DNA of 64,000 bases from Candidatus Sysuimicrobium tengchongense. GTDB lineage: Bacteria; Sysuimicrobiota; Sysuimicrobiia; Sysuimicrobiales; Sysuimicrobiaceae. The position numbers were made by a program, and so were the translations under genes. The notes under the pieces are model-generated. The model searched no databases, was not told where the DNA came from, and was given only the letters and a program-made list of their open reading frames with translations. The DNA is taken from NCBI GenBank assembly GCA_031460175.1, contig JAVKGW010000001.1:403021-467020 (forward strand). Direction: 5' to 3'. Shown piece after piece: positions 29,572 through 31,553 of this stretch (position 1 is its first letter; every line of letters starts with the position of its first letter).

Positions 29572-31553
29572 CGGGCGATCTCCCTCCCGACCCCCACCGC
29601 GACCCGCTGCGTTCGGAGGGGCTCCACCCGGACCGCGGTGGCCTTGAACTCCGCGGTCCCGGACTTGGGATCCGCGGCGTCCACGGTCAGGAAGTTGGTC
29701 GGGGTCTTCTCGGGGAAGTGCAGGGTCATGAAGCACATCCCGGGCGGGACCGTGGACTCCACCCAGGCGGTCGCCTCCACGGACCCTCTCCGGGAAAAGA
29801 CCCGCACGCGGTCCCCGGAGGAGATGCCGTAACGCCTGGCGTCCGCGGGGTTGAGCACCAGGTACTCTTCCTGGGGGACGGGCGTTCTGTACAGGGCCGT
29901 CTGCACGCCCGTGTTGAAGAAGTAGAGCCTGCGCCCGGTGGTGAGCAAGAGCGGGTAGTCCTCGTTCACCTCGTCCACGGGCGGTTCGTAGTGGGTGGGC
30001 ATGAAGGGCGCCCGGGGGCCTTCCACCGGACGCTTCCACAGCCGGCTGTGCAGGAACTGCTCCCCGGGGTGGTCCTCGCTCGGGCAGGGCCACTGGATCC
30101 CGCCGAGCTCCTCCAGGCGGCGGTAACTCATGCCCCGGTGCAGCGGCGAGAGCGCCCGCACCTCGTTCCACACCGCCTCCGCATCGGGGTAGTTCCAGTC
30201 CCGTCCGAGCCGCCGGGCGAGCTGCTGGAGGATCCAGAGGTCGTCCTTCGCTTCCCCGGGAGGCTCGAGGGCCTTGCGGACGCGCTGCACCCGCCGCTCG
30301 CTGTTGGTAACGGTCCCCTCGGACTCGCACCAGGCCGCGGCCGCGGGAAAGACCACGTCCGCGAGCTCGCCCGTGGCGGTGAGAAAGATGTCCTGCACCA
30401 CCAGGAACTCGAGCTCTTGGAACAGCCGGAGGATGCGGGTGGCGTTGGCGTCCGAGCGCACGGGGTTCTCGCCGATGACGTACAGGCCCCGGAGGAGGCC
30501 CTTCTCCATCGCGTCGTACATGGCCGTCAGGTGCCAGCCCGCCTTGGGCGGGATGGAGCAGTCCCAGGCCCGCTCGAACCGGGCCCGCACCTCCGGGTCC
30601 TCCACGTTCTGGAACCCCACGAGCCGGTTGGGGAGGGCCCCCATGTCGCCTCCCCCCTGGACGTTGTTCTGGCCCCGCAGGGGGTTGAGGCCGGACCCGT
30701 AGCGGCCCACGTGGCCCGTGAGCAGCGCGAGGTTGATCAAACTGAAGACGGTGTCCACCGCGTTGTGGTGCTCCGTGATCCCCAGGGTCCAGCAGATCAT
30801 GGCGCGGGGGGCAGTGGCGTACTCCCGGGCCGTGGCCGCGATGAGCTCCCGGGGGACTCCCGTGACGGCCTCCGCGTATTCCAGGGTGTAGGGTTCCACC
30901 GCCTCCCGGTACCGCTCGAATCCCTCCGTGGCCTCCCGGACGAACTCCTCGTTGACGAGCCCCTCCTCGATGATCAGCCGGCCCATGGCGTTCGCGAGGG
31001 CGATGTCCGTGCCCACCCGCACGGGGAGCCACCGGTGGGCGAAGGCCACGCTCGAGGTTCGCCGGGGATCGATGACCACAAGGCGCGCGCCGTTCCGCAC
31101 GCCCTTGAGCATGTGCAAGAACATCACCGGGTGGGTCTCCCGGGCATTGGACCCCCACAGGAGGATGAGGTCCGTCTCCTCCATCTCCCGGTAGGAGTTG
31201 GTCCCTCCGCCCGCGCCGAACACCGCCGCCAGACCGGCGACGCTGGGGGCGTGTCAGGTGCGGTTGCAGCTATCGACGTTGTTCGAGCCCATCACCTGGC
31301 GCGCGAACTTCCCGGCCAGGTAGTTGAGCTCGTTGGTGGACTTGGAGCAGCTGAACAGCCCGAAGCCCTGGCCTCCGTACCGCTCCCGGATGCGCCGCAG
31401 CCCTTCGGCGGCCCGGTCCAGGGCCTCCTCCCAACTGGCCCGGACCAGCCGTCCGTCCTTGCGCACCAGGGGGTAGGTGAGGCGCACGTCCGGGCCCGGG
31501 AGATCTCCCCGATCGTTCCCCAGGGGGACCCTCGGAGTTGCCACCGCGCTCAC
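29568..31553 (-). CDS. Formate dehydrogenase alpha subunit, Mo-bisPGD catalytic fragment, selenocysteine-containing (in-frame TGA at 31254-31256)
   Basis: Reading through the TGA gives ...[20 protein letters not shown]..., which matches E. coli FdhF around U140 (NNVDCCARV-U-HGPSVAGL). The rest is collinear with FdhF through the C-terminal cap domain. GTG start ~31544-31553 after GGAGAGGGGG. Confidence 0.8.
31224..31253 (-). promoter_or_regulatory. Bacterial SECIS hairpin immediately 3' of the Sec UGA
   Basis: UGA-CACGCCCCCAG-CGUCGCC-GGUCU-GGCGGCG forms a 7-bp stem with a GGUCU apical loop. Spacing and loop resemble the fdhF SECIS (UGACACGGCCCAUCGGUUGCAGGUCUGCAC). Confidence 0.6.

What the first reader, a model, noticed from the sequence alone, without database searches (positions are those of the whole stretch)
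31215..31260. In-frame UGA plus fdhF-like SECIS; the gene is broken in the ORF track
The ORF track splits the catalytic FDH gene at 31254 (ORFs 29568..31223 and 31254..32486). Reading through the TGA gives [18 protein letters not shown], the conserved Sec active-site context. Immediately 3' is CACGCCCCCAG followed by a 7-bp stem with a GGUCU loop. This matches the E. coli fdhF SECIS in spacing and apical loop. The organism therefore very likely has selA/selB/selD/selC elsewhere in the genome. Automated annotation would call a pseudogene or two fragments here.
Basis: seen in the sequence. Interest (0 to 1): 0.6.

Follow-up and report, generated by a model that had tools for sequence, protein, structure and literature searches.

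The report
Selenocysteine codon in formate dehydrogenase gene
The apparent stop codon inside this formate dehydrogenase gene is almost certainly read as the rare amino acid selenocysteine, helped by a small RNA hairpin just after it; this is a well-known mechanism, so the gene is intact rather than broken.

Summary
An in-frame TGA lies at 31256..31254 (- strand) in the context [18 protein letters not shown]. Eleven nt downstream is a 7-bp hairpin with a GGUCU loop, at the same offset as the E. coli fdhF SECIS.

Folding energy alone is not informative (z = -0.34 in 70% GC DNA). The comparative evidence decides it:
- 135 of 164 related loci from many phyla carry TGA at this codon; 29 carry TGC/TGT.
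- Only the TGA forms freeze the synonymous sites of codons +5 to +9 (Gly +7 is GGT in 99%).
- The hairpin core is 98-100% paired across 93 distinct sequences, with a clean C-G/G-C swap.
- dN/dS is 0.02-0.2 on both sides of the TGA.
- Several relatives have selB, selC, selD or selA beside the operon.

Two corrections. The upstream ORF 31254..32486 is mostly spurious: only its last 96-99 codons are FDH, and the rest overlaps a permease gene. The catalytic protein also lacks the N-terminal 4Fe-4S domain. That domain sits at the C-terminus of a NuoG-like protein two genes downstream, in a conserved operon (catalytic, NuoE-F fusion, FeS).

The sel genes of this genome could not be checked. Verdict: an ordinary new member of a known kind.

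The parts
31254..31256 (-). In-frame UGA read as selenocysteine (residue 100 counted from GTG 31553); aligns with Sec140 of E. coli FdhF
   Evidence: TGA at the same codon in 135 of 164 related loci, TGC/TGT in 29.
31224..31242 (-). SECIS hairpin: CGUCGCC / GGUCU loop (31235..31231) / GGCGGCG, starting 11 nt after the UGA
   Evidence: Present in the MFE fold. Core 6 bp are 98-100% paired in 93 distinct sequences; pair 18-30 is CG:76/GC:17 with none unpaired. G23 is invariant and U24 is in the >=90% class. Same offset as E. coli fdhF.
31209..31256 (-). 48-nt UGA-plus-SECIS region under RNA-level constraint
   Evidence: Covariance model R1: 71.4 bits, E = 2.5e-17, next window hit 13.1 bits. Synonymous variation is suppressed at codons +5..+9 only in the TGA forms. 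Sub-threshold Rfam SECIS_3 match at 31201..31259.
29568..31553 (-). Formate dehydrogenase catalytic (Mo/W-bisPGD) subunit gene, 661 codons including Sec. The start is GTG 31553, or 31544 as called in relatives. It has no Fe4S4 domain.
   Evidence: PF00384 + PF01568 only. TIGR01591 scores 695 bits (cutoff 666), covering profile positions 53-672. 39% identity to E. coli FdhF residues 60-694. PDB matches.
27673..29571 (-). NuoE-NuoF fusion (NAD(H)/FMN diaphorase subunit); its start overlaps the FDH stop as ATGA
   Evidence: PF01257, PF01512, PF10589. nuoF_fam and nuoE_fam hits. The same gene follows the catalytic gene in relatives.
26789..27676 (-). NuoG-like Fe-S subunit (2Fe-2S, 4Fe-4S clusters) ending in the Molybdop_Fe4S4 domain that the catalytic subunit lacks; its start overlaps the previous stop as ATGA
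   Evidence: Fer2_4, Fer4 families and PF04879 at the C-terminus. TIGR01591 profile positions 1-50 match residues 235-284. Residues 6-282 align with R. capsulatus FdsA 21-303.
23087..24061 (-). FdhD (sulfurtransferase needed for FDH maturation), about 2.7 kb downstream, beyond two + strand genes
   Evidence: PF02634, E = 2.3e-67. FdhD flanks the operon in 30+ related loci.
31622..32974 (-). ArsP_1-family permease gene. It is context rather than part of the FDH, and it explains why most of ORF 31254..32486 is spurious.
   Evidence: PF03773. Real membrane-protein translation versus an Arg/Pro-rich out-of-frame read. The same gene is called in L001/L002.

Best explanation
The TGA at 31256..31254 is a selenocysteine codon in the catalytic subunit of a molybdenum/tungsten formate dehydrogenase. 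During translation, SelB carrying Sec-tRNA(Sec) is recruited by the mRNA hairpin 11 nt downstream (7 bp, GGUCU loop with the G23-U24 pair). Sec is inserted as the metal ligand, next to the catalytic His101 and Arg293.

The product is one 661-residue protein, not two fragments. It is the first gene of a translationally coupled three-gene operon: catalytic subunit, NuoE-NuoF fusion, and a NuoG-like Fe-S subunit that carries the proximal 4Fe-4S domain in trans. Together these most likely form an NAD(H)-linked formate dehydrogenase / CO2 reductase.

Shown here: the sequence features, their conservation and covariation, homology, and gene order. Inferred: actual Sec insertion, SelB binding, NAD coupling, and physiological direction.
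For: 1. Active-site alignment. U100/H101/R293 align with E. coli FdhF Sec140/His141/Arg333. Actinomycete homologues read [18 protein letters not shown].
2. TGA at this codon in 135 of 164 related loci from Sysuimicrobiota (CSP1-3), Limnochordia, Actinomycetota, Acidobacteriota, Gemmatimonadota and others; TGC/TGT in 29.
3. RNA-level constraint only in the TGA forms. Gly +7 is GGT in 99% (entropy 0.07 bit) and Leu +8 is CTG in 99%. Other Gly codons of the same genes have entropy 1.2-1.7 bit. The Cys forms have 1.38 and 0.91 bit at these two codons.
4. Hairpin core 98-100% paired in 93 distinct sequences, with compensatory C-G to G-C changes at synonymous sites (pair 18-30: 76/17/0 unpaired). 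No shuffle out of 500 reaches the observed covariation score.
5. dN/dS is 0.016-0.2 upstream and 0.06-0.17 downstream of the TGA against relatives of 76-99% identity in those segments.
6. The hairpin start (nt 15) and GGUCUG (nt 22-27) coincide with E. coli fdhF. There is a weak Rfam SECIS_3 hit at exactly this site.
7. tRNA-Sec lies directly upstream of the homologous operon in L132, L152 and L153. SelB, SelD, a probable SelA (named by position only, not family-scanned) and a NifS-like gene are adjacent in L132, L153, L152, L142, L160 and L164.
8. TGA is the commonest ordinary stop in the window, used by 34 of 65 predicted genes, so the code is not reassigned.
9. Operon and FdhD.
Against: - selA, selB, selC and selD were not found in the 64-kb window, and the rest of the genome could not be searched.
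- The hairpin's folding energy is no better than shuffled sequence.
- The bulged U of the E. coli SECIS is absent, and the loop is 5 nt rather than 4.
- The Rfam SECIS_3 score is far below the gathering threshold (20.5 vs 63 bits).
- The lower stem seen in the single-sequence fold shows no covariation on inspection of the alignment columns.
- No experimental data exist for this lineage.
Confidence: 0.93

Rival explanations
1. The gene is a pseudogene: a nonsense mutation (TGC/TGT to TGA) inactivated the FDH, leaving two dead fragments.
For: Gene callers split it, here and in relatives. No sel genes are in the window.
Against: - The same TGA is present in 135 loci across many phyla.
- dN/dS is 0.02-0.2 on both sides.
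- The downstream operon genes are intact and translationally coupled.
- The hairpin shows synonymous-site constraint and compensatory changes only in the TGA forms.
Confidence: 0.02
2. Translation stops at the TGA and restarts at GTG 31223, giving a two-piece enzyme without Sec or Cys at the metal site.
For: An in-frame GTG lies 31 nt after the TGA, and this family already tolerates a split between the Fe4S4 and catalytic domains.
Against: - The break would remove the essential metal-ligand residue and cut between it and the catalytic His.
- The GTG is simply a Val codon (+11). It is conserved as an amino acid (97%) but variable in codon (GTG in 41% of the Val codons, entropy 1.82 bit).
- It lies inside and just after the 3' arm of the hairpin, with no Shine-Dalgarno pattern conserved in the alignment.
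- The Cys forms are continuous.
Confidence: 0.02
3. The UGA is read through, but not as Sec. For example, Cys is inserted by the Sec pathway under selenium limitation, or Trp by near-cognate suppression, in a lineage that has lost part of the Sec machinery.
For: Sec machinery is unverified for this genome, and Cys variants of the family are clearly functional in evolution.
Against: - A SECIS kept under strong constraint implies SelB-dependent decoding.
- Relatives link the operon physically to selB, selC and selD.
- Loss of the machinery would be expected to be followed by TGA-to-TGY replacement, as in the 29 Cys loci.
Confidence: 0.03

Closest known systems
E. coli formate dehydrogenase H (fdhF) Sec140 and its SECIS element
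   Same: - In-frame UGA at the homologous active-site codon, followed by His; Arg333 is conserved; 39% protein identity.
- The hairpin begins 11 nt after the UGA.
- GGUCUG is at nt 22-27, with G23-U24 in the loop.
   Different: - No bulged U.
- 5-nt loop closed by C-G instead of a 4-nt loop closed by A-U; GC-rich 7-bp stem.
- The extended lower stem is not supported by covariation.
- The protein lacks residues 1-59 of FdhF, the 4Fe-4S domain.
NAD-dependent FdsABG(D) of Rhodobacter capsulatus / Cupriavidus necator (PDB 6TG9/6TGA) and Fdh1AB of Methylobacterium extorquens (7E5Z, 7VW6)
   Same: - The same modules: a NuoG-like Fe-S part, a catalytic part, and a NuoE/NuoF diaphorase. The diaphorase is fused into one protein here; from general knowledge, the beta subunit of M. 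extorquens Fdh1 is fused in the same way.
- FdhD is nearby.
- The Fe-S protein aligns with FdsA 21-303 and the catalytic protein with FdsA 324-932.
   Different: - FdsA is one polypeptide with Cys at the active site (from general knowledge).
- Here it is two genes in the order catalytic, NuoEF, FeS, cut between the Fe4S4 and molybdopterin domains, and it uses Sec.
Rfam RF01989 SECIS_3 (bacterial selenocysteine insertion sequence 3)
   Same: The model consensus contains UGACACG and an apical gGCc-AGUCU-gGCc hairpin at the same spacing. The window matches model positions 1-59 at 31201..31259 on the - strand.
   Different: Score 20.5 bits against a gathering score of 63. The lower helices of the model are not matched.
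Cys-type orthologues in actinomycetes (Streptomyces, Saccharopolyspora, Thermopolyspora), annotated 'NAD-dependent formate dehydrogenase catalytic subunit'
   Same: 60-63% identity. The same three-gene split operon with FdhD, and an identical active-site peptide.
   Different: TGC/TGT instead of TGA, and no conserved hairpin or codon constraint downstream.

Membership tests
Bacterial SECIS (fdhF type) | In-frame UGA at a codon that is Cys or Sec in homologues | tested here: met
Bacterial SECIS (fdhF type) | Hairpin immediately 3' of the UGA, with the upper stem starting 11 nt after it | tested here: met
   the 5' arm starts at nt 15 in both the window and E. coli fdhF
Bacterial SECIS (fdhF type) | Apical loop presenting G23-U24 (known as the SelB contact nucleotides in E. 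coli; general knowledge) | tested here: met
   The loop is GGUCU. G23 is invariant and U24 is in the >=90% class across 93 distinct sequences.
Bacterial SECIS (fdhF type) | Bulged U in the upper helix (E. coli U17) | tested here: not met
   The stem is continuous. U17 pairs with G31 here and with A31 in 74 of 93 relatives.
Bacterial SECIS (fdhF type) | Structure conserved with compensatory changes in relatives | tested here: met
   core 98-100% paired; pair 18-30 is CG:76/GC:17; pair 15-33 shows four pair types
Bacterial SECIS (fdhF type) | Binds SelB and directs Sec insertion | not testable with these tools
   Needs a binding or read-through assay
Rfam RF01989 SECIS_3 | Score at or above the family's gathering threshold (63 bits) | tested here: not met
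   20.5 bits, E = 0.018-0.032 in a local search; no hit at gathering threshold
Formate dehydrogenase alpha subunit (TIGR01591 Fdh-alpha) | Score above the curated cutoff | tested here: met
   695 bits against 666.25, with Cys substituted for Sec in the query
Formate dehydrogenase alpha subunit (TIGR01591 Fdh-alpha) | Catalytic Sec/Cys-His pair and Arg | tested here: met
   U100, H101 and R293 align with E. coli U140, H141 and R333
Formate dehydrogenase alpha subunit (TIGR01591 Fdh-alpha) | N-terminal 4Fe-4S (Molybdop_Fe4S4) domain on the same polypeptide | tested here: not met
   No PF04879 on the catalytic protein. Profile positions 1-50 match the C-terminus of the separate Fe-S protein.
NAD-linked FdsABG / Fdh1AB-type formate dehydrogenase | NuoE- and NuoF-like FMN/NAD(H) module encoded with the catalytic subunit | tested here: met
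   conserved in relatives
NAD-linked FdsABG / Fdh1AB-type formate dehydrogenase | NuoG-like Fe-S N-terminal extension fused to the catalytic domain | tested here: not met
   Present, but as a separate gene two positions downstream
NAD-linked FdsABG / Fdh1AB-type formate dehydrogenase | NAD+/NADH-coupled formate oxidation or CO2 reduction | not testable with these tools
   Needs an enzyme assay
Selenocysteine-decoding trait of the organism | selA, selB, selC (tRNA-Sec) and selD present in the genome | not testable with these tools
   None in the window, and the rest of the genome is not available. They are present next to the homologous operon in L132, L142, L152, L153, L160 and L164.

The most novel reading that the evidence does not exclude
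The Sec codon itself is conventional. The enzyme it sits in may belong to an uncharacterised, very widespread architectural class of NAD-linked formate dehydrogenase / CO2 reductase.

In this class the FdsA-type alpha subunit is cut between the proximal 4Fe-4S domain and the molybdopterin domain. The genes are permuted to catalytic, NuoE-F fusion, Fe-S, so the first cluster of the electron wire is supplied in trans. Most of the environmental loci sampled here use Sec, and Sec and Cys forms alternate among closely related sequences.

In the CSP1-3/Sysuimicrobiota lineage this would be the CO2-reducing entry enzyme of the proposed reductive glycine pathway (PMC11604079).
Probability: 0.4. Interest if true: 0.45.

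Novelty: new member of a known kind. Interest (0 to 1): 0.3.

Why it matters
For annotation: the gene should be called as one 661-codon selenoprotein gene (transl_except Sec), not as a pseudogene or two fragments. The same correction applies to the relatives sampled here. All 15 database proteins of 68-96% identity listed are truncated, and 135 of the 164 related loci that could be scored keep the TGA.

For physiology: it implies a selenium requirement for formate/CO2 metabolism in a thermophilic, uncultivated lineage (relatives of Ca. Sysuimicrobium, CSP1-3). For that lineage fdhA has been proposed as the entry step of the reductive glycine pathway, which is useful to know for cultivation.

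The comparison set is also a clean natural experiment. The same protein family exists with and without UGA, and it shows how a SECIS constrains synonymous sites. The split Fe4S4/catalytic architecture is a side result that may interest enzymologists.

Tried and rejected
- Folding energy as evidence: the hairpin is in the MFE fold, but z = -0.34 against shuffles in 70% GC sequence. Rejected as a criterion.
- Extended lower stem pairing the UGA region, seen in the single-sequence fold. Columns 12/36 and 9/40 do not covary in the alignment. Not claimed.
- Alternative hairpin register (+3). It is 82.8% paired because of the GGCGGCGG repeat. It has a lower covariation score, and by inspection it breaks in the 17 GUGGUC...GGCCAC sequences. 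Rejected.
- Exact-sequence look-ups of the window's 551-aa ORF and of the Limnochorda pilosa protein found nothing.
- Looking for the Sec machinery:
  - ARAGORN and Rfam on the window found only tRNA-Ser(CGA) and tRNA-Ala.
  - tblastn of SelB, SelD, a probable SelA and NifS-like proteins, taken from related contigs, gave no hit in the window or in the CSP1-3 loci.
  - Pfam on 30 further window genes found none. The weak SepSecS hit of the PLP decarboxylase at 1731..3182 is a generic fold-type-I resemblance.
  - Literature: 'Limnochorda' + 'selenocysteine' gave 0 papers. The two CSP1-3 papers and one set of supplements do not mention selenium.
- Other in-frame TGA candidates in the window (12869, 43166 and same-frame neighbours) are simply adjacent genes: Crp regulator/epimerase and MurT/GatD.
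- Literature on the split architecture: three searches found no description. These were not exhaustive.
- I ran no further search on SelB. Its top 120 hits would be relatives of the query organism, not of this lineage.
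Full report
**1. The observation**

On the minus strand the sequence reads ...AAC AAC GTC GAT AGC TGC AAC CGC ACC TGA CAC GCC CCC AGC GTC GCC GGT CTG GCG GCG GTG..., with the TGA at 31256..31254. It translates as [20 protein letters not shown].

After the TGA come 11 nt (CACGCCCCCAG). Then comes CGUCGCC-GGUCU-GGCGGCG, a 7-bp stem with a 5-nt loop at 31242..31224, which appears in the minimum-free-energy fold. So the sequence-level observation is correct.

The fold energy is not better than chance: -26.6 against -25.6 +/- 3.0 kcal/mol for dinucleotide shuffles, z = -0.34. 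The window is about 70% G+C. The case for function has to come from elsewhere.

**2. What the gene is**

Most of the upstream ORF 31254..32486 translates to Arg/Pro-rich nonsense. It overlaps, in another frame, a real ArsP_1-family permease gene at 31622..32974. The three reading frames between 31380 and 31720 show that the FDH frame only makes sense from about GTG 31553 or GTG 31544, both preceded by GGAGAGGGGG. Gene callers on close relatives call a 96-residue N-terminal fragment, which corresponds to 31544.

Reading through the TGA gives a 661-residue protein with Pfam Molybdopterin and Molydop_binding domains. It has no Molybdop_Fe4S4 domain.
- It passes NCBIfam TIGR01591 (formate dehydrogenase alpha): 695 bits against a cutoff of 666, covering profile positions 53-672 only.
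- It is 39% identical to E. coli FdhF residues 60-694.
- The TGA aligns with Sec140, the next residue with His141, and R293 with Arg333.

**3. The operon**

The FDH stop overlaps (ATGA) the start of a 632-residue NuoE-NuoF fusion at 29571..27673. That gene's stop in turn overlaps the start of a 295-residue NuoG-like Fe-S protein at 27676..26789. The Fe-S protein's C-terminus is the missing Molybdop_Fe4S4 domain, and it matches TIGR01591 profile positions 1-50.

Against solved structures, the Fe-S protein aligns with R. capsulatus FdsA residues 21-303 and the catalytic protein with residues 324-932. In every solved-structure match that covers the N-terminal part of the query, the chain still has about 60 or more residues ahead of the matched stretch, which fits the Fe4S4 domain being on the same chain.

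FdhD lies at 24061..23087. The order catalytic, NuoEF, FeS is found in at least 113 of the related loci that have enough flanking DNA. So the enzyme is an FdsABG/Fdh1AB-like, presumably NAD-linked, FDH whose alpha subunit is split and permuted.

**4. Relatives and the TGA**

The database proteins most similar to the read-through product (68-96% identity) are all 502-606 residues, meaning they were truncated by the gene callers. Actinomycete homologues (60-63% identity) are full length, 630-660 residues, and read [18 protein letters not shown].

I fetched DNA for 165 related loci:
- five by exact protein look-up;
- 80 from one-genome-per-species contigs. The closest are MAGs named Ca. Sysuimicrobium calidum (94%) and Ca. 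Tepidifontimicrobium thermophilum (92%), placed here in phylum CSP1-3/Sysuimicrobiota on the basis of their names and PMC11604079. Others are Limnochordia, Actinomycetota, Thermoleophilia, Acidobacteriota, Gemmatimonadota and more;
- 80 from metagenomes, using a Streptomyces Cys-type protein as the query.

In the 164 sequences that could be scored (163 of these loci plus the window), the codon is TGA in 135, TGC in 18 and TGT in 11.

**5. RNA-level constraint**

I compared 131 distinct TGA-type sequences with 28 distinct Cys-type sequences, codon by codon.

| Codon | TGA forms | Cys forms |
|---|---|---|
| Val +5 | GTC 85% | GTC 71% |
| +6 | Val, GTC 100% of the Val codons | Ala, GCC 61% |
| Gly +7 | GGT 99%, entropy 0.07 bit | GGG 46%, entropy 1.38 bit |
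| Leu +8 | CTG 99%, entropy 0.06 bit | CTG 68%, entropy 0.91 bit |

Other Gly codons of the same TGA-type genes prefer GGC, with entropies of 1.2-1.7 bit.

I then counted the named 8-pair hairpin on 93 distinct 48-mers.
- The six core pairs are 98-100% paired.
- Pair 18-30 is C-G in 76 sequences and G-C in 17, with none unpaired. Both changes are synonymous third-position changes (GTC/GTG Val and GCG/GCC Ala).
- Pair 15-33 shows CG, GC, UA and GU.
- Pairs 17-31, 19-29 and 20-28 switch between Watson-Crick and G-U.
- No shuffle out of 500 reaches the observed covariation score or percentage paired.
- Slid registers score worse. The exception is +3, which is favoured by the GGCGGCGG repeat. By inspection it fails in the GUGGUC...GGCCAC sequences.
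- In the loop, G23 is invariant and U24 falls in the >=90% conservation class.

A covariance model of this alignment finds the site at 71.4 bits, E = 2.5e-17, and nothing above 13.1 bits elsewhere in the window. The window sequence is part of the model. Rfam has no match at gathering thresholds, but SECIS_3 (RF01989) matches exactly this site at 20.5 bits in a local search.

**6. Selection on the protein**

Against relatives, dN/dS is 0.016-0.2 for the 75 codons before the TGA and 0.06-0.17 for the 150 codons after it. The one exception is the most distant relative, L019, with 0.32 downstream and saturated dS upstream. Both parts are maintained in one frame, so this is not a pseudogene.

TGA is also the most frequent ordinary stop codon among my 65 predicted window genes, with 34 uses. 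The genetic code is therefore not reassigned.

**7. Sec machinery**

The window has only tRNA-Ser(CGA) and tRNA-Ala. It gives no tblastn hit to SelB, SelD, the probable SelA or a NifS-like protein.

Those query proteins came from related contigs, where the machinery sits next to the same operon:
- tRNA-Sec lies directly upstream of the FDH gene in L132, L152 and L153.
- L152 has a SelB C-terminus (SelB wing domains), tRNA-Sec, a class-V aminotransferase and SelD (AIRS domains).
- L132 and L153 have a partial upstream ORF that is probably selA, a 634-residue ORF that is probably selB (its C-terminal part is 53% identical to the SelB fragment of L152), and tRNA-Sec. Neither ORF was scanned against a family library.
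- L142, L160 and L164 have SelD and the probable SelA.

This links the family to Sec decoding.

**8. Comparison with the known**

The element works like the E. coli fdhF SECIS. It has the same codon, the same 11-nt spacer, and GGUCUG at the same nt 22-27. It differs in having no bulged U, a 5-nt loop closed by C-G, and no supported lower stem.

Selenocysteine-containing FDH is the most widespread bacterial selenoprotein (general knowledge; see also PMC1794560). This is therefore a new member of a known kind.

The less ordinary feature is the split, permuted alpha subunit. I found no description of it in three literature searches, but these were not exhaustive. Public annotation already names the Cys forms 'NAD-dependent formate dehydrogenase catalytic subunit'.

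PMC11604079 reports fdhA as prevalent in Sysuimicrobiota and proposes the reductive glycine pathway. It does not mention selenium.

**9. Verdict**

Interest is modest. The main value is correct annotation, a selenium requirement inferred for an uncultivated thermophilic lineage, and a side lead on a split FDH architecture.

Noticed in passing
window 26789..31553 (- strand); also L001-L165: The FdsA-type alpha subunit is split between its Fe4S4 domain and its molybdopterin domain, and the genes are permuted (catalytic, NuoE-F fusion, Fe-S). All three are coupled by ATGA overlaps. The order is conserved in at least 113 loci from many phyla. The Fe-S protein ends ...PEMKTP and the catalytic protein starts near ...VRLTYPLVR. 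Both resemble the single RLKTPMIRR junction of E. coli FdhF, as if the junction motif were kept on both pieces.
   Followed up: partly
L132 2773..2869, L152 481..576, L153 2731..2827, and flanks of L142, L160, L164: In several metagenomic relatives the Sec machinery (probable selA, selB, tRNA-Sec, a NifS-like aminotransferase, selD) lies immediately upstream of the homologous Sec-FDH operon. This suggests the trait and its main client gene travel together.
   Followed up: partly
window 62935..63019 (- strand) and 59642..62907 (- strand): A c-di-GMP-II riboswitch (Rfam, 54.5 bits, just above threshold) sits directly upstream of a gene with a prepilin N-terminal methylation motif (62482..62907). 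That gene is followed by an unassigned ORF and a 743-residue DUF4900 protein, which looks like a pilin-like operon under c-di-GMP control. Two GGDEF diguanylate cyclases are also in the window (3233..4480, 36060..36749).
   Followed up: no
window 31226..31320 (- strand): A weak, sub-threshold Rfam hit to Saccharopolyspora antisense sRNA 389 (RF02743) overlaps the FDH active-site region. It probably exists only because that sRNA family was defined opposite the homologous FDH gene of Saccharopolyspora.
   Followed up: no
L002 1214..5427 versus L001 and window 35569..36800: One 96%-identical relative (L002) carries a phage-type integrase, DUF3631 and an HTH gene just beyond the aldehyde dehydrogenase gene. 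The window has tRNA-Ala (35569..35643) followed by ordinary genes at that place. This is probably an integrated element at the tRNA in that strain.
   Followed up: no
window 1731..3182 (- strand): A pyridoxal-dependent decarboxylase gives a weak secondary Pfam hit to SepSecS (E = 1.9e-7). This is a generic PLP-fold resemblance and should not be taken as Sec machinery.
   Followed up: partly
window 46162..50098 (- strand) and 51036..54523 (+ strand): There is a PrkA / SpoVR-like cluster. There is also a heme cluster with a chlorite-dismutase-like (HemQ-type) gene, uroporphyrinogen decarboxylase and ferrochelatase. From general knowledge, this fits the coproporphyrin-dependent heme pathway typical of Gram-positive lineages, and the source appears to be a relative of Limnochordia/CSP1-3.
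   Followed up: no
A1 rows L004/L012 and L046: There are rare loop variants of the SECIS: AGUUU in a Limnochordia MAG (the peptide changes from VAGL to VVSL, but the central G-U is kept) and GGGCU in a Vicinamibacterales MAG (U24 lost). These would be natural tests of which loop bases SelB needs.
   Followed up: no
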